From a virus (taxonomy: Duplodnaviria; Heunggongvirae; Uroviricota; Caudoviricetes), in IMG/VR virus record IMGVR_UViG_3300014721_000007, positions 1 through 7,648 of that record: DNA of 7,648 nt, one strand, 5' to 3'. Of this stretch, positions 2,854-7,589 are shown piece by piece. The notes under the pieces were generated by a model. It was not told the DNA's origin. It was given only the letters and a program-made list of their open reading frames with translations, and did not search any database. Every line of letters starts with the position of its first letter. The stretch's first letter is position 1. A program made the position numbers and the translations under genes.

Positions 2854-3680
2854 CCCCTGAATCCTGCCGGGATCTGGCTGTAGTCCACGTTGTCGTAACT
2901 GGCTTTGAAGTACGGGTCCTCGCGTCTGGCTGCAGATACCGCAGGAACTTCCCAGGATTCTTCGAAATGACGATCCGGACCAAAGAACGTGACAGCCTGT
3001 TTCACAAATTGTGTGCCGCTGTTACCCATCGCAGATACCCAGCCCGCGTAGCGTTTCACACCTTCCAGCATGGTTTCGGGGTTTACCCCCTCATTCAAAC
3101 GGGCTTTCCAGGCTTTGAAGGCTGCAGATTTTGAATTGCCACCAGCACGTTTGGGATAGGCCAGCCATGCCTGCTCAAACTCCGGAGAGTATTCCGGTCG
3201 GTTTGAACGAACTCGCACAGACTCATCAGCAGATGCACCAACAGCTATTGGTTCATTGACTGGTTCTTTGACTGGTTCTTTGACTGGTTCAAAAGAGTGA
3301 CTGGTTCTGGGTGAATCTCCTGCACTACCCCCTGGTGCAACTCCTGCACTACCTGGTGAATTTGCTGCACCAGATAGTGAATTATTTGCACTACCCCCTA
3401 GTGAATCTCCTGCACCATCAAGATGAAGGAGATAGATATTACTTGAGTTACCTTTTTCACCTTTCCGGGTGACTTTTTTTACCAGCCCGGACTCACAAAG
3501 GGCCGCAATATGATTCATCACAGAACGTTTGCTAATCTCGCACTGGTCAGCAATATGCTGGTAGCTGGGCCAGCACTCACCCTGATCGCTGGCATTATCA
3601 GCCAGCTTGATCAGAACCAGTTTTCGCAATGGATTACCCACTCGAATTTTCATCGCTTTAACCATCAGCTCCATACTCAT
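2850..3680 (-). CDS. Replication initiator, lambda-O-like architecture (N-terminal HTH domain, repeat-encoded low-complexity linker, C-terminal domain)
   Basis: 276 aa. N-terminal winged-HTH-like region (LVLIKLADNASDQGECWPSYQHIADQCEISKRSVMNHIAALCESGLVKK), a Gly/Ser/Ala/Pro-rich linker, EPVKEPVKEPVNEP, then a C-terminal domain. The linker is encoded by DNA direct repeats, as in lambda where ori lies inside O. ATGA overlap at 3677-3680. Confidence 0.7.
   Translation of the reverse strand: MSMELMVKAMKIRVGNPLRKLVLIKLADNASDQGECWPSYQHIADQCEISKRSVMNHIAALCESGLVKKVTRKGEKGNSSNIYLLHLDGAGDSLGGSANNSLSGAANSPGSAGVAPGGSAGDSPRTSHSFEPVKEPVKEPVNEPIAVGASADESVRVRSNRPEYSPEFEQAWLAYPKRAGGNSKSAAFKAWKARLNEGVNPETMLEGVKRYAGWVSAMGNSGTQFVKQAVTFFGPDRHFEESWEVPAVSAARREDPYFKASYDNVDYSQIPAGFRG
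3256..3307. repeat. Tandem 12-bp direct repeats TTTGACTGGTTC (3 units plus a fourth degenerate copy)
   Basis: GACTGGTTC recurs at about 3258, 3270, 3282 and 3299; the first three are at a 12-bp period. They encode the EPVK repeats of the O-like protein. Confidence 0.85.
3311..3421. repeat. Five imperfect 21-24-bp iteron-like direct repeats (candidate origin iterons) with an adjacent AT-rich stretch at 3421-3480
   Basis: Units begin at 3311, 3335, 3356, 3377 and 3401, each starting GTGAA(T)/GTGCAA and containing TGCAC(T/C). GTGAATCTCCTGCAC is exact at both 3311 and 3401; CTCCTGCACTACC is exact at 3317 and 3341. Confidence 0.6.
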
Positions 3681-3901
3681 GCTGCACCTCCGAGATGCTT
3701 CATGTTTTTTCCGGAGCGAAAGGCTATAAGCGGCATACTGACGCGGTAATTACGGCCCAGCGGTTCACAAACCACCTTCTGACATTCACGGTCAACCAGG
3801 CTAACACGTAGAACATGCCCTGCAGGCGTGGTGTACCACTGACCGGGGCGAGGACAACGGAAAGTCTGATTGGTAAATCGTTTGAAAATATTCCGGATCA
3901 T
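3677..3901 (-). CDS. Hypothetical small protein (74 aa)
   Basis: ORF bracketed by ATGA start/stop overlaps with both neighbours (3898-3901 and 3677-3680), which supports translation. No family recognised. Confidence 0.45.
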   Translation of the reverse strand: MIRNIFKRFTNQTFRCPRPGQWYTTPAGHVLRVSLVDRECQKVVCEPLGRNYRVSMPLIAFRSGKNMKHLGGAA

Positions 3902-5046
3902 TTGCGCCCCCTTACCTCTGAAGAGTTCAGCGACGAATGAATAAGACGGGCAAGAAATGCCGCATCGTTAATTCGGTCATACAGACTTACAGCCAGAGGT
4001 GATTCAGCTTTTTCCAGCATGGGATAAAGCTGCTGCAACCAGACCTGATGAATTGATGAAATGTAGGAATAGAGAACGCTGGCGTTATGTGCAACGTCGC
4101 TCGGTACAGCGGGCTTTGAAAGCTGTTTCTCCATCTGGTTAAAGGCATTGATGTATGCCTCTTTGAACTGGGCAGCACGTTTACCCGTGAAACCCATAGC
4201 AAGAAACGCAAAGCCATCGCGGGTTATTTGATAGCAAGGTAGTTTGCGGCCTGAAGCGTCGGTATAACCACTTAACACAAAATTGTGTTCAGCAAATTCA
4301 GCGGAGCATTCAAGGTTTCGAATTCTATCTAAAACCCGCTCGTGCCGTTTAGTAAAGTAGTTAGCAACTGCAAGAGATGTAGTGACAGCACGACCATTGA
4401 TGATCGTGATTTCAGGGTGAACAAAGGTTGGGATCGTAGCCATAATGGCAGCCTCGGTAGCAAGCTTAAAAAACTCACCACATAAGACGCCAATCATAGA
4501 GGTGGTGAGACGTACAGAGTTGGCGTTACCGGCGGCTACCCTTACCGGCGCATCTTGCGATGCCCCTGTACGCCCCACCATAATTTGGGCGTGACAAAAT
4601 AATGCGTACAAAAAAACCGCATCTACGCGGTTGTACGCGGTAGCCTTCTCCAGGACGCCAATCCCGGCACCCGCTTTATAAGGTGCCTGAACAGTGTAAC
4701 GTCCCGGAATGGCAGAATCAATGTGCTGGTGGTCCTTCACACTCAACAAAATCACGCCTGAATTTCCACAAAGGACTAAAGCACTCATGCGGGTAGTCTT
4801 TGCGAAGATAGATAACGCGCTGTGTTTCTGGCTCCCAACGAATAACATGGACATAAAGCCCTCTTCCGTCACGAAACCAGCGGTTAAGTTCCTGCACAAC
4901 TCGCCCCCCACAGTCAGGTAAAGTTCTCTGTGGTTACTTACAGCCAGGTGATTTGGTAATCTGCATTCATGCCGTAACAACAGGTGTTCAGCGACGCTGA
5001 CCACCAGCTGTTGCGACAAACGGTTATTTGCCGTTAAACTGTTCAT
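3898..5046 (-). CDS. Rha-family phage regulatory protein with an about 200-aa N-terminal extension of unknown function
   Basis: Residues about 205-310 (INGRAVTTSLAVANYFTKRHERVLDRIRNLECS...LPCYQITRDGFAFLAMGFTGKRAAQFKEAYINAFNQME) match the Phage_pRha domain. The start ATG at 5046 forms an ATGA overlap with the upstream stop, and the frame stays open for 382 codons. Confidence 0.7.
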   Translation of the reverse strand: MNSLTANNRLSQQLVVSVAEHLLLRHECRLPNHLAVSNHRELYLTVGGELCRNLTAGFVTEEGFMSMLFVGSQKHSALSIFAKTTRMSALVLCGNSGVILLSVKDHQHIDSAIPGRYTVQAPYKAGAGIGVLEKATAYNRVDAVFLYALFCHAQIMVGRTGASQDAPVRVAAGNANSVRLTTSMIGVLCGEFFKLATEAAIMATIPTFVHPEITIINGRAVTTSLAVANYFTKRHERVLDRIRNLECSAEFAEHNFVLSGYTDASGRKLPCYQITRDGFAFLAMGFTGKRAAQFKEAYINAFNQMEKQLSKPAVPSDVAHNASVLYSYISSIHQVWLQQLYPMLEKAESPLAVSLYDRINDAAFLARLIHSSLNSSEVRGRK

Positions 5047-5639
5047 GCGTTAGTTTCTCCACAGACACAAAACGCCACGACGCCCGGAGCTGCACACTCG
5101 CGGGCGTCACTCTTTTCTGGAGCGCAAAAGATTTTGTAGACCAGTGCTGCATGCTCCTGGAGCTTCGAAATTGACAGATACAACTCATCATTAATTGCTG
5201 TCTGCTCGTGTGGCTCCACTACCCCATCTTCGATTGCCGAACGAATCTGCTTTGAGTAACTCCCGATCTGTTCGATGACTTCCAGCAGGCGCTGGTTTAT
5301 ATCGGCGTTCTCTACTTCCTCAATTTCAGGAAGCGATACAAACACCCCACCAGCAGACTGTGCGACAGCATCCGCAATGTAGTGAGTGCCAGCCGCGCGC
5401 TGTAAAATCATTGCCCATCCCAGCGGGAAAATCTGATCGCCATCTGCACGAAGGCGGTTGAATAAAGCGTTCTCTGTTACATCCAGCCACTCAGCAGCTT
5501 CAGCGTAACCCCCCGGCAACGCCGCGATAGTTTTTCTGACAGCTTTCACGTACCACTCAGGCTGTTTTTCTACTTTCCAGTGATGCTTACCCACGGTTAG
5601 CCTCATCGTTCTGTGGTTTCTGTTAATCGATTTATCCAT
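5043..5639 (-). CDS. Putative CII-like / YdaT-family regulatory protein
   Basis: Sits directly downstream of the Cro-like gene. HTH-like segment GGYAEAAEWLDVTENALFNRLRADGDQ. The ATG at 5639 overlaps the cro stop (ATGGATAA) and is preferred; alternative starts are the GTG at 5708 and the ATGs at 5651 and 5606. Family assignment is from memory only. Confidence 0.45.
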   Translation of the reverse strand: MDKSINRNHRTMRLTVGKHHWKVEKQPEWYVKAVRKTIAALPGGYAEAAEWLDVTENALFNRLRADGDQIFPLGWAMILQRAAGTHYIADAVAQSAGGVFVSLPEIEEVENADINQRLLEVIEQIGSYSKQIRSAIEDGVVEPHEQTAINDELYLSISKLQEHAALVYKIFCAPEKSDARECAAPGVVAFCVCGETNA

Positions 5640-5832
5640 TAGATTTTTCATAAAGCTCAGGTTTAAATGGCAACCGTCCGCAAGTTCTATATGCAGCTTC
5701 TGCTGCACGTCCTTTTGGAATTAACTGGCCCGGACGGTTTCGCCACTGATAAACGGCTTCAGTTGTTATGCCGAAAAAAGCAGCAACTTTCTCAATACTG
5801 CCGAAGTAGCTTTCGATATCGTCAGTTGTCAT
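5632..5832 (-). CDS. Cro-like (YdaS-type) HTH repressor
   Basis: 66 aa, divergent from the CI-like gene. Motif LA..LGVS..AVSQW-like segment (VAAFFGITTEAVYQWRNRPGQLIP). GGAGG Shine-Dalgarno 4-5 nt upstream of the ATG at 5832. Confidence 0.75.
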   Translation of the reverse strand: MTTDDIESYFGSIEKVAAFFGITTEAVYQWRNRPGQLIPKGRAAEAAYRTCGRLPFKPELYEKSNG

Positions 5833-7201: not shown

Positions 7202-7454
7202 TTGATTTTCCTTTTATGTATACGGGCTTAAAAGGATACCACCGAGCCTGAAGTGGTGAAAAGACAGGCACATAACAGCTAAGTATTTTCAACCAAAGAG
7301 AATCCTTAGCGTTGTGGTGAATGCGGCTCAGCGCACGCGGGTTAAGGTTGAGGCTGACAGTCGACCTTCTGTGGATACCCACCCGTCTGGTGTGCAACCT
7401 TCGCCAGGCACCGGGAGGCACCCGGCACCACAACTTTATGCTGTGTGTAGTCCT

Positions 7455-7501
7455 GGCGGTACCAGTTTGTACCCTTGCTTCCGGCTGGTACCGTCCTTTT
7501 T
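7455..7501 (+). terminator. Terminator-like hairpin on the + strand
   Basis: Stem 7455-7465 pairs with 7485-7495 (core GGTACCAG / CTGGTACC, 11 bp including one G-U), 19-nt loop, followed by CTTTTT (7496-7501). No U tract on the - strand. Confidence 0.4.
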
Positions 7502-7502
7502 A

Positions 7503-7589
7503 CAAAACAGAGAAGAGCATCACCGGACGACGGGCTCATAACCCAATCCATCCGGGCGGCTGCCACCGCAGGTGTTCTTCTCTGTTTTG
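7503..7589. repeat. 14-bp perfect inverted repeat CAAAACAGAGAAGA / TCTTCTCTGTTTTG enclosing a 59-nt G+C-rich segment
   Basis: Arms at 7503-7516 and 7576-7589 are exact reverse complements. The stem is extensible by about 4 more pairs with G-U pairing in RNA. No credible ORF covers it. Confidence 0.85.

What the first reader, a model, noticed from the sequence alone, without database searches (positions are those of the whole stretch)
3898..5046. Rha domain preceded by an unassigned about 200-aa N-terminal region
Rha domains are normally at the N-terminus of Rha proteins. Here the recognisable Rha domain starts around residue 205, after a hydrophobic, low-charge region with several Cys and His and two or three apolar stretches (for example SALVLCGNSGVILLSV and AVFLYALFCHAQIMVG). 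The 382-codon frame is uninterrupted and its ATG overlaps the upstream stop (ATGA), which argues the extension is translated. It could be a novel domain fusion, possibly membrane-associated. A nested hairpin (GCGTACAA...TTGTACGC with inner CCGC/GCGG, 4604-4638) sits in this part of the coding sequence.
Basis: partly seen in the sequence, partly recalled or inferred. Interest (0 to 1): 0.5.

Follow-up and report, generated by a model that had tools for sequence, protein, structure and literature searches.

The report
RNA immunity switch inside Rha gene
The "unassigned N-terminal region" of this phage Rha protein is not a new protein domain: that DNA holds a small gene read in another frame plus two regulatory RNA genes (IsrK and C4) that control the Rha start codon, as in satellite phage P4, so it is a new example of a known switch.

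Summary
The 382-codon frame (3898-5046, minus strand), its ATGA overlap with the upstream gene and the hairpin are all real. The first 201 codons are not a novel or membrane domain.

- Codons 51-110 lie over a complete 59-codon DUF4222 gene read in another frame. Selection acts on that frame (pN/pS 0.18 against 1.59), and only that frame gives a confident fold.
- Codons 117-211 match Pfam "Ash".
- Across 60 relatives the C4 loops co-vary with one target pair in IsrK and a second pair that ends on the Shine-Dalgarno sequence of ATG 4443 (MATIPTF). This ATG aligns with the start of P4 kil.

The long frame is nevertheless kept open: relatives show 0 stop sites in it against 33 and 28 in the other two frames. 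This is the arrangement published for P4 eta/kil, with an internal promoter, immunity RNAs and a nested in-frame gene.

Verdict: an ordinary new member of a known kind. The one new detail is that the long frame crosses the whole DUF4222 gene out of frame.

The parts
5043..5708 (-). Upstream YmfL / CII-like gene. Its TGA (5045-5043) overlaps the ATG of the long ORF (ATGA).
   Evidence: NCBIfam NF041471 YmfL E 6.7e-50; Pfam Phage_CP76; overlap read directly from the sequence.
3898..5046 (-). Long 382-codon ORF (the finding). It is the Eta-like frame that runs through every element listed below.
   Evidence: ORF list. Annotated as one CDS in phages cdtI, mEp460 and ST64B. Frame kept open in relatives. 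P4 eta has the same layout.
4898..5046 (-). Leader, codons 1-50 of the long ORF. No family match. The sequence is unrelated between leader types, yet the frame is open in each type.
   Evidence: No Pfam or NCBIfam hit. The K-12 e14 leader is unrelated in sequence and 30 nt longer (10 codons), but in phase. Two variants (L072, L130) break the frame here.
4718..4897 (-). DUF4222 gene: 59 codons plus stop, GTG start preceded by GGGGGG. It is read in a different frame (+2) from the long ORF and lies wholly inside it.
   Evidence: PF13973 E 9.5e-14; phrog_1343 E 1e-36. pN/pS 0.18 against 1.59 for the long frame. AlphaFold mean pLDDT 85.6. 33 homologues of about 59 aa in four genera. PGAP annotates it separately in some genomes.
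4693..4721 (-). Putative internal promoter (counterpart of PisrK / P4 PLE): -35 TTGATT (4721-4716, overlapping the DUF4222 stop), 17-nt spacer, -10 TACACT (4698-4693). The +1 would fall at G 4686.
   Evidence: Read from the sequence. TACACT is kept in 51 of 55 distinct upstream contexts. Aligns with the Gifsy-1 hexamers TTGACA/TATATT just upstream of isrK and with P4 TTGCCT/TATAGT. Scores 8 of 12, below the promoter scan's threshold. Not tested experimentally.
4610..4686 (-). IsrK / seqA-type sRNA carrying target sites a1 (TTGGCGT, 4661-4655) and b1 (GGCTACC, 4645-4639), with an intrinsic terminator (stem 4632-4615, T-run from 4614).
   Evidence: Rfam RF01394, 60.0 bits (gathering 50). Terminator scan. 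Fold z -4.0. a1/b1 co-vary with the C4 loops.
4498..4585 (-). C4 / CI-type antisense RNA with recognition sites b' (GGTAGCC, 4540-4534) and a' (ACGCCAA, 4526-4520). The AUG at 4581-4579 at its 5' edge corresponds to the first AUG of Gifsy-1 orf45.
   Evidence: Rfam RF01695, 68.4 bits (gathering 45). MFE -46.5 kcal/mol, z -6.2, same shape as the Rfam consensus. The long outer helix and first inner hairpin are 99.7% paired with compensatory changes; the second hairpin is 98.7% paired without double changes. Gifsy-1 orf45 mapped.
4441..4493 (-). Downstream target and translation start: a2 (TTGGCGT, 4493-4487), b2 (TTGCTACCG, 4463-4455), SD GAGG (4455-4452), ATG 4443-4441.
   Evidence: Coordinates checked. 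a'-a2 and b'-b2 are 93.6% paired, against 30-46% when slid, with 13 of 16 pairs changed on both sides. The motif GAGGCTGCCAT(T/C)ATGGCTAC is shared with the P4 kil start.
3898..4443 (-). Nested in-frame Rha gene (181 codons, MATIPTF...), the regulated cargo. The Rha domain is encoded at about 4126-4383.
   Evidence: PF09669 E 5e-30 and TIGR02681. AlphaFold confidence rises only after about residue 212. The start is conserved where the cargo is not Rha (L010, L011).
3677..3901 (-). Downstream 74-codon gene whose ATG overlaps the Rha stop (ATGA). Context only.
   Evidence: phrog_1153 E 9e-46; overlap read from the sequence.

Best explanation
The region is a P4-type RNA immunity cassette placed in the early operon of a cdtI/mEp460/e14-like lambdoid prophage. 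The finding's long ORF plays the role of P4 eta, and the Rha gene plays the role of P4 kil.

**Shown here**
- An IsrK/seqA-type sRNA with an intrinsic terminator sits inside the ORF, preceded by a conserved promoter-like TTGATT-17-TACACT.
- A C4/CI-type antisense RNA follows it.
- The two single-stranded sites of C4 (a', b') are complementary to one copy of the targets in IsrK (a1, b1). They are also complementary to a second copy (a2, b2) that ends on the Shine-Dalgarno sequence of ATG 4443.
- All three copies co-vary through many specificities.
- Codons 51-110 of the long frame lie over a separate DUF4222 gene in another frame, and that gene is the selected reading there.

**Inferred, by homology with P1 c4, P4 CI and Gifsy-1 IsrK**
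- Transcripts from the internal promoter mostly stop at the IsrK terminator.
- Read-through transcripts yield C4, which pairs with a2/b2 and blocks ribosome entry at the Rha start, keeping the antirepressor-like Rha protein off.
- Excess IsrK competes for C4 and turns Rha on.
- Transcripts that start further upstream, from the early promoter, carry the long frame. Ribosomes handed over from ymfL at the ATGA overlap would read through the terminator and through C4. That would prevent both structures from forming and would reach Rha regardless of C4.
- This would give a 382-aa (or shorter) N-extended Rha whose extra residues matter only because they are translated.
For: **RNA genes.** Both Rfam hits exceed their gathering scores (C4 68.4 against 45; isrK 60.0 against 50). 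C4 folds at z -6.2, and the terminator is detected.

**Covariation on 60 sequences.** The long outer helix and first inner hairpin of C4 are 99.7% paired. a1-a'/b1-b' are 97.6% paired, against 31-52% when slid. a'-a2/b'-b2 are 93.6% paired, against 30-46%. In each intermolecular set, 13 of 16 pairs have changes on both sides. b2 abuts the SD, and the ATG follows 12 nt after the start of the SD.

**The internal start.** The same SD-ATG precedes non-Rha cargo and P4 kil, whose 65 codons match the published length.

**P4 link.** The old P4 'cI gene product' ORF is a Pfam Ash member and coincides with the C4 hit.

**Published mechanisms.** P4 eta/kil as summarised in PMC10111431. Gifsy-1 isrK-orf45-anrP in PMC4825925, mapped onto its sequence.

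**Frame maintenance.** Stop sites by frame are 0, 33 and 28. The spacing to the ATG is 232, 235 or 238 nt only. The frame is open for at least 100 codons upstream in 111 of 111 contexts. Elsewhere the frame has its own SD-ATG or a stop/start overlap.

**DUF4222.**

**No fold or transmembrane signal in residues 1-211.**
Against: - No expression data were available for this phage. The promoter, RNA ends, processing, and which start codons are used are all inferred.
- The internal promoter matches only 8 of 12 consensus positions and fell below the scan threshold.
- In Gifsy-1 the upstream ORF (orf45) is out of frame with the cargo and stops at AUGA. In-frame fusion is therefore not a universal rule.
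- Part of the frame's openness over DUF4222 can be inherited. Only about 6.5% of synonymous changes, all of them transversions, would create a stop there.
- Two natural variants break the frame in the G-run just upstream of the DUF4222 start.
- The window's Rha protein is unrelated to Gifsy-1 AnrP. Its antirepressor role is an annotation, not a result.
Confidence: 0.85

Rival explanations
1. One reading: residues 1-200 form a novel, possibly membrane-associated, protein domain fused to Rha.
For: The frame is uninterrupted and coupled to the upstream gene. It is annotated as one protein in many records. It contains apolar stretches.
Against: - Residues 51-110 evolve with pN/pS 1.59, while the overlapping DUF4222 frame has 0.18.
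- Residues 117-211 are dictated by two RNA genes, and their variable parts follow RNA covariation.
- pLDDT is 20-28 throughout residues 1-211, against 61-73 for the best part of the Rha region with the same alignment.
- The hydropathy maximum is 1.40. The stretch AVFLYALF is simply the terminator's U-tract read as Phe/Leu codons.
- Leaders of different types are unrelated in sequence.
Confidence: 0.03
2. Only the part from the internal promoter onward matters. Codons 1 to about 110 (the leader plus the DUF4222 overlap) are an open frame by chance and inheritance and are never translated. Any Eta-like translation starts at an internal codon such as ATG 4788 or GTG 4755, or does not occur in this phage.
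For: - Some annotators start the protein at the equivalents of 4788, 4755 or 4746, and annotate DUF4222 separately.
- Once the frame is open it tends to stay open, since only about 6.5% of synonymous changes would close it.
- L072 and L130 carry frameshifts upstream of DUF4222.
- In other contexts the frame begins only 5-12 codons before the -35 element.
Against: - Given the DUF4222 protein sequence, the chance that the long frame is open across it is only about 0.04.
- At least three leader types are all open, in phase, and begin at or beside the stop of the preceding gene: the window type, the e14/K-12 type (30 nt longer and unrelated in sequence) and the Stx1 type.
- No good SD precedes 4788 or 4755.
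- P4 eta is reported to be coupled to its upstream gene by the same kind of overlap.
Confidence: 0.35
3. Ash (residues 117-211) is a true folded protein domain with its own activity, so this DNA codes both for RNAs and for a functional polypeptide.
For: The Pfam family PF10554 exists and is matched above threshold. The frame is under selection to stay open. It has proper starts in other cassettes.
Against: - The conserved residues coincide with conserved RNA stems and promoter elements.
- The residues encoded by the a and b sites change freely with RNA specificity.
- pLDDT is about 22.
- P4 immunity is described as RNA-based (PMC10111431 and PMC4825925).
- In Gifsy-1 the frame shifts inside C4 with no loss of the system, and that paper reports orf45 conserved as nucleotides but not as amino acids.
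Confidence: 0.08
4. Residues 1-112 are a YmfM-type cell-division inhibitor domain (e14 SfiC) fused to Rha.
For: The first 112 codons are positionally equivalent to ymfM of E. coli K-12, annotated as 'cell division inhibitor YmfM'. BLASTP gives 33% identity, E 5e-9. Expression of ymfM causes filamentation (bioRxiv 10.1101/2020.11.19.390815).
Against: - The similarity is confined to the first five residues and the DUF4222 overlap.
- In that overlap, selection acts on the other frame (window against K-12: pN/pS 0.31 for DUF4222, 1.46 for the YmfM frame).
- The rest of the leader is unrelated.
- The cloned ymfM ORF also carries the nested DUF4222 ORF with its own AAGGAG SD.
- Term searches of the preprint text found no mention of a start-codon or frame-specific test.
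Confidence: 0.07

Closest known systems
Satellite phage P4 immunity region: eta/kil nested genes with promoter PLE, seqA, CI RNA and seqC (Forti et al. 1999, pmid 10464191, as summarised in PMC10111431)
   Same: - The DNA aligns from the internal promoter through the seqA/IsrK element, the terminator U-run, the ATTATGG motif and the CI/C4 RNA, down to the identical start motif GGAGGCTGCCATCATGGCTAC.
- A long ORF starts at a stop/start overlap with the upstream gene and runs through both RNA elements, with a shorter gene nested in the same frame at the RNA-controlled SD-ATG.
- Both regions match Pfam Ash, Rfam C4 and Rfam isrK.
   Different: - The cargo is a 181-aa Rha-family protein rather than the 65-aa Kil.
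- The host element is a lambdoid prophage early operon, between a CII-like gene and the replication genes, rather than a satellite.
- P4 has about 78 extra nt between the ATTATGG motif and CI.
- Here the long frame starts about 360 nt before the sRNA instead of about 70 nt, and crosses an entire DUF4222 gene out of frame.
- P4 termination is described as immunity-dependent at a downstream site. Here only the intrinsic IsrK terminator can be seen.
Gifsy-1 isrK-orf45-anrP locus of Salmonella (Hershko-Shalev et al. 2016, PMC4825925)
   Same: - The order is the same: promoter, IsrK with a readable terminator, a C4-like RNA (STnc1160), then an antirepressor-type gene.
- An upstream reading frame starts at the conserved AUG at the 5' edge of C4 (MVGR...) and delivers ribosomes to the cargo start.
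- Short IsrK activates cargo translation in trans.
   Different: - In Gifsy-1 a 4-nt shorter C4 loop puts orf45 out of frame with anrP, ending in AUGA. A stop lies immediately before its AUG, so no long Eta-like frame exists.
- AnrP is unrelated to the window's Rha.
- The locus sits next to antQ in the late region rather than in the early operon.
Phage P1/P7 immI operon: c4 antisense RNA, icd, ant1/ant2 (from my own knowledge of Citron and Schuster 1990 and Biere et al. 1992, not read here; Rfam RF01695 and RF03163)
   Same: - An antisense RNA is processed from the same transcript as its targets.
- Two recognition sites (a', b') are matched by an upstream pair (a1, b1) and by a downstream pair (a2, b2) that covers the ribosome-binding site of the first gene of an antirepressor operon.
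- Specificity is changed by co-variation of the sites.
   Different: - The P1 target is the icd RBS, with ant coupled behind it. Here the target is the RBS of the Rha gene itself.
- The window matches the a1b1 model only weakly (21.4 bits against a gathering score of 46.7) because that part is better described by isrK.

Membership tests
C4 antisense RNA (Rfam RF01695; P1 c4 / P4 CI) | Covariance-model score above the curated gathering score | tested here: met
   68.4 bits against 45, E 4e-12, full length 1-87, at 4498-4585 minus strand.
C4 antisense RNA (Rfam RF01695; P1 c4 / P4 CI) | Long outer helix enclosing two hairpins, supported by compensatory changes | tested here: met
   The MFE structure equals the consensus, z -6.2. 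The outer helix and first hairpin are 99.7% paired, with 5 and 4 pairs changed on both sides.
C4 antisense RNA (Rfam RF01695; P1 c4 / P4 CI) | Two single-stranded sites complementary to an upstream target pair and to a downstream pair at the RBS of the controlled gene | tested here: met
   In the window, a1 and a2 are both exactly complementary to a'. b1 is fully complementary to b', and 6 nt of b2 are complementary to b'. Covariation across 60 sequences is. b2 ends on the first G of the SD GAGG.
C4 antisense RNA (Rfam RF01695; P1 c4 / P4 CI) | Processed, stable RNA that represses the downstream gene | not testable with these tools
   Needs Northern blots or RNA-seq and reporter assays.
IsrK / P4 seqA element (Rfam RF01394) | Covariance-model score above gathering score, with three hairpins the last of which is an intrinsic terminator | tested here: met
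   60.0 bits against 50 at 4610-4686. Terminator stem plus T-run found. Terminator fold z -4.0. The whole sRNA fold is not exceptional against shuffles (z -0.75).
IsrK / P4 seqA element (Rfam RF01394) | Own promoter immediately upstream | tested here: inconclusive
   TTGATT-17-TACACT lies 6 nt before the model start and is conserved in 51 of 55 contexts. It aligns with the Gifsy-1 and P4 promoter positions. It matches only 8 of 12 consensus positions, and there are no transcript data.
P4 eta/kil-type nested genes | Long ORF that begins upstream of the internal promoter, overlaps the stop of the preceding gene and spans both RNA elements | tested here: met
   Window: ATGA at 5046-5043, with the ORF continuing through 4686-4498. 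P4: ATGATGATG over the ORF88 stop, ORF 8168-8812.
P4 eta/kil-type nested genes | Shorter gene in the same frame starting at the RNA-controlled SD-ATG | tested here: met
   ATG 4443 is in frame with 5046. The motif GAGGCTGCCATTATGGCTAC aligns with the P4 kil start. The phase is kept in 111 of 111 contexts.
P4 eta/kil-type nested genes | Translation of the long ORF prevents termination of upstream-initiated transcripts | not testable with these tools
   Indirect support only: 0 stop sites in this frame against 33 and 28 in the others. Needs nonsense mutants and transcript analysis.
Rha family (Pfam PF09669 / TIGR02681) | Profile match above curated cut-off | tested here: met
   104.4 bits against 29.9 at residues 222-307. 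TIGR02681 scores 100.4 against 45.95.
Ash protein family (Pfam PF10554) | Profile match above curated cut-off | tested here: met
   54.1 bits against 26 at residues 117-211. The matched DNA is the IsrK and C4 genes. The P4 member is the old 'cI gene product' ORF over the CI RNA. The match therefore says little about a protein function.
DUF4222 (Pfam PF13973), alternative frame 4718-4897 | Profile match above cut-off, and purifying selection in that frame | tested here: met
   51.1 bits against 27. pN/pS 0.11-0.31 in pairwise comparisons, 0.18 pooled. Mean pLDDT 85.6.
   The highest Kyte-Doolittle 19-residue mean is 1.40, at residues 85-103. No dedicated transmembrane predictor was available.

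The most novel reading that the evidence does not exclude
The first ~110 codons of this ORF are the counterpart of e14 ymfM, annotated in E. coli K-12 as the SOS-inducible cell-division inhibitor (SfiC). In both places the conserved, foldable product of that DNA is the nested 59-aa DUF4222 protein in the other frame. The YmfM-type frame would then be only a conduit that carries ribosomes from ymfL through DUF4222, the IsrK terminator and C4. If so, DUF4222, not YmfM, is the division inhibitor, and the same 180 nt are translated in two frames for two different purposes.
Probability: 0.3. Interest if true: 0.55.

Novelty: new member of a known kind. Interest (0 to 1): 0.3.

Why it matters
It corrects an annotation repeated in hundreds of E. 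coli and Salmonella prophages. These entries read "Rha family regulator", "peptidase" or "Ash domain, function unknown", and the annotation hides a DUF4222 gene, a promoter and two regulatory RNAs.

It places an antisense-RNA immunity layer with many co-varying specificities in the early operon of cdtI-, Stx- and e14-type prophages. That layer bears on how co-resident prophages avoid inducing one another, and on toxin-phage induction.

It also explains what the Pfam Ash "domain" is. Finally, it raises a cheap, testable doubt about which product of the ymfM locus blocks cell division.

Tried and rejected
- **Programmed -1 frameshift at G GGG GGC (4909-4903) from the long frame into DUF4222.** Rejected. 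ST64B-type relatives have a stop between the G-run and the DUF4222 start, and the K-12 type has no G-run. The G-run more likely serves as the SD for the GTG start.
- **GTG 4737 as the Ash-type start.** It sits at the position of the ATG in other cassettes. Rejected because it is GCG in Stx1-type relatives and has no usable SD.
- **Homology of the window's Rha to Gifsy-1 AnrP.** None found.
- **Fold searches with the DUF4222 model.** Only generic SH3/KOW/Tudor-like small barrels were found, with nothing at E <= 0.001.
- **RNA structure in the leader (4898-5046).** Not exceptional, z -1.3.
- **The primary P4 paper (PMC94026).** Not held in the library. I relied on the summary in PMC10111431 and on the P4 sequence itself.
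- **NCBIfam.** No family for the DUF4222 ORF or for residues 1-116.
- **The IsrK terminator helix in alignment A1.** It counted only 54% paired because the alignment is out of register there for half the sequences. I did not realign it.
Full report
**1. The observation**

On the minus strand an ORF of 382 codons runs from 5046 to 3898. Its ATG overlaps the TGA of the upstream YmfL/CII-like gene as ATGA. Pfam Rha matches residues 222-307, and the internal Met of MATIPTF is residue 202, at ATG 4443. The hairpin at 4604-4638 is real, with z -4.0 against shuffles. The window is 99.7% identical here to phage cdtI. The same long CDS is annotated in mEp460, ST64B, Stx phages and hundreds of E. coli genomes.

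**2. What lies under residues 1-201**

Three independent layers appear.

(a) DUF4222 gene. A 59-codon ORF at 4718-4897, in another frame, matches DUF4222 (PF13973, E 9.5e-14) and phrog_1343 (E 1e-36).
- Across 39 distinct nucleotide variants its protein is nearly constant, while the long-frame translation varies.
- Pooled pN/pS is 0.18 in the DUF4222 frame and 1.59 in the long frame.
- With alignments of similar depth, AlphaFold gives mean pLDDT 85.6 for DUF4222, a small SH3-like barrel. It gives 20-28 for residues 1-211 of the long ORF, while the best part of the Rha region (residues about 221-280) reaches 61-73.
- PGAP and one phage record already annotate DUF4222 separately.

(b) Two RNA genes. 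Rfam finds an isrK sRNA at 4610-4686 (60 bits, gathering 50) and a C4 antisense RNA at 4498-4585 (68.4 bits, gathering 45). C4 folds as the consensus at z -6.2.

(c) Pfam Ash. Residues 117-211 hit Pfam Ash, and this is exactly the DNA of the two RNAs. In P4 itself the Ash member is the old "cI gene product" ORF, which lies over the CI RNA.

No hydropathy window reaches transmembrane range. The apolar stretch AVFLYALF is the terminator's U-tract read as codons.

**3. The antisense circuit**

I fetched 120 IMG/VR stretches with a 16-nt IsrK motif, so the sample is independent of gene calls. These, together with the annotated loci, gave 59 distinct sequences between the sRNA start and the downstream ATG.

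In the alignment with Gifsy-1 (A1), the C4 sites a' and b' pair with a1 and b1 in IsrK in 97.6% of cells, against 31-52% when the partner is slid. They pair with a2 and b2 downstream in 93.6% of cells, against 30-46%. In each set 13 of 16 pairs are changed on both sides. At least seven a-types and a dozen b-types occur.

In the window, a1 and a2 are both TTGGCGT and a' is ACGCCAA. b1 is GGCTACC, b' is GGTAGCC and the b2 core is GCTACC. b2 ends on the first G of the SD GAGG, and ATG 4443 follows.

The SD-ATG is conserved even where the cargo is not Rha (e14-like loci L010 and L011). It aligns with the start of P4 kil, whose 65 codons I read from the P4 sequence. This is the P1 c4 / P4 CI design. 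In Gifsy-1 the same parts were shown experimentally to control the antirepressor AnrP (PMC4825925; mapped).

A promoter-like TTGATT-17-TACACT sits 6 nt before the sRNA start, overlapping the DUF4222 stop. Its -10 hexamer is conserved in 51 of 55 contexts, and it aligns with the Gifsy-1 and P4 promoter positions.

**4. Why the frame is open anyway**

Between the sRNA start and ATG 4443 the relatives show 0 stop sites in the long frame, against 33 and 28 distinct sites in the other two frames. The spacing takes only the values 232, 235 and 238 nt. The frame is open for at least 100 codons upstream in 111 of 111 contexts.

Where DUF4222 is absent, the frame starts 5-12 codons before the -35 element. 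It does so with a good SD-ATG (GGGAGGTG-6-ATG) or with an ATGA/TAAATG overlap on the preceding gene. Ribosome passage therefore appears to be selected, while the amino acids follow the RNA.

This is already described for P4. Eta starts at an overlap with the upstream alpA homologue and contains the constitutive promoter, seqA and CI. It is translated only from upstream transcripts, and its translation prevents termination. Kil is the truncated in-frame form (PMC10111431, citing Forti et al. 1999). I confirmed the ORF geometry on the P4 sequence.

**5. The part specific to this window**

Here the long frame begins about 360 nt before the sRNA and must cross DUF4222 out of frame.

Evidence that this is more than chance:
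- Given the DUF4222 protein, the chance that the frame is open across it is about 0.04.
- Three leader types are all open, in phase, and start at or beside the upstream stop. These are the window type, the e14/K-12 type (30 nt longer and unrelated in sequence) and the Stx1 type.

Evidence that weakens this:
- Once open, the frame is easily inherited.
- Two variants break it.

I put the probability that translation really starts at 5046 at about one half.

**6. Verdict**

The interpretation as a novel or membrane domain is not supported. The suggestion that the extension is translated is plausible, but for a regulatory reason that is already known. The locus is a new member of the P4 eta/kil, CI/seqA (C4/IsrK) kind, carrying a Rha cargo in a lambdoid early operon.

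**In passing**

K-12 ymfM ("cell division inhibitor YmfM") is the same kind of long-frame leader and contains a nested DUF4222 ORF with its own AAGGAG SD. The published clone carried both.

Noticed in passing
L135 (E. coli K-12 NC_000913.3) 3323-3661; counterpart of window 4710-5046: K-12 e14 ymfM, annotated 'cell division inhibitor YmfM' (112 aa), starts at an ATGA overlap with ymfL, as the window's long ORF does. In another frame it contains a complete DUF4222 ORF with an AAGGAG SD and a TTG start. Selection acts on the DUF4222 frame (pN/pS 0.31 against 1.46 for window versus K-12). The published filamentation clone carried the whole ymfM ORF, so DUF4222 may be the active product.
   Followed up: partly
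window 4414-4698 (residues 117-211); L136 (P4) 8168-8584: The Pfam family Ash (PF10554) corresponds to the conceptual translation of the IsrK/seqA plus C4/CI RNA region. Its P4 member is the historical 'cI gene product' ORF over the CI RNA. A 2021 preprint on Stx phages still calls the Ash domain of unknown function.
   Followed up: yes
L012 834-2344; L015; L029 9652-11209; proteins P0002, P0004, P0005: Cassettes (frame start, promoter, IsrK, C4, SD-ATG, cargo) occur as tandem arrays of two or three with a 656-nt period. Each has its own a/b specificity. Proteins of 590-600 aa carrying the same Ash and Rha domains may be two cassettes fused into one ORF; I did not inspect them.
   Followed up: partly
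window 7289-7504 (+): A sub-threshold match to the sRNA family STnc100 (39.5 bits, gathering 47, E 5e-6). A related locus (L029) has a full-score copy at 159 bits.
   Followed up: no
window 3677-3901 (-): A 74-codon gene (phrog_1153) starts with an ATGA overlap on the Rha stop. It shows faint similarity to DUF4222 (BLASTP E 0.03; phrog_1153 also hits the DUF4222 ORF at E 0.008). In some relatives its first 11 codons (MIRNIFK.FTN) are joined directly to the Ash-type frame, which suggests recombination at CGCCACCAGCATATTGATTC.
   Followed up: partly
window 4604-4611 with 4631-4638, and relatives in alignment A1: The A-rich 5' flank of the IsrK terminator pairs with the sequence just past its U-tract (GCGTACAA with TTGTACGC). 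The pairing appears to change in step in other specificity types (for example CACAA with TTGTG, and CGATA with TATCG). This hints at an extended or alternative stem.
   Followed up: no
window 5632-5708 (-): The listed GTG start of the YmfL/CII-like ORF (5708) overlaps the Cro-like ORF (5632-5832) by 77 nt. Phage cdtI annotates a shorter 187-aa version, so the true start is probably further downstream.
   Followed up: no
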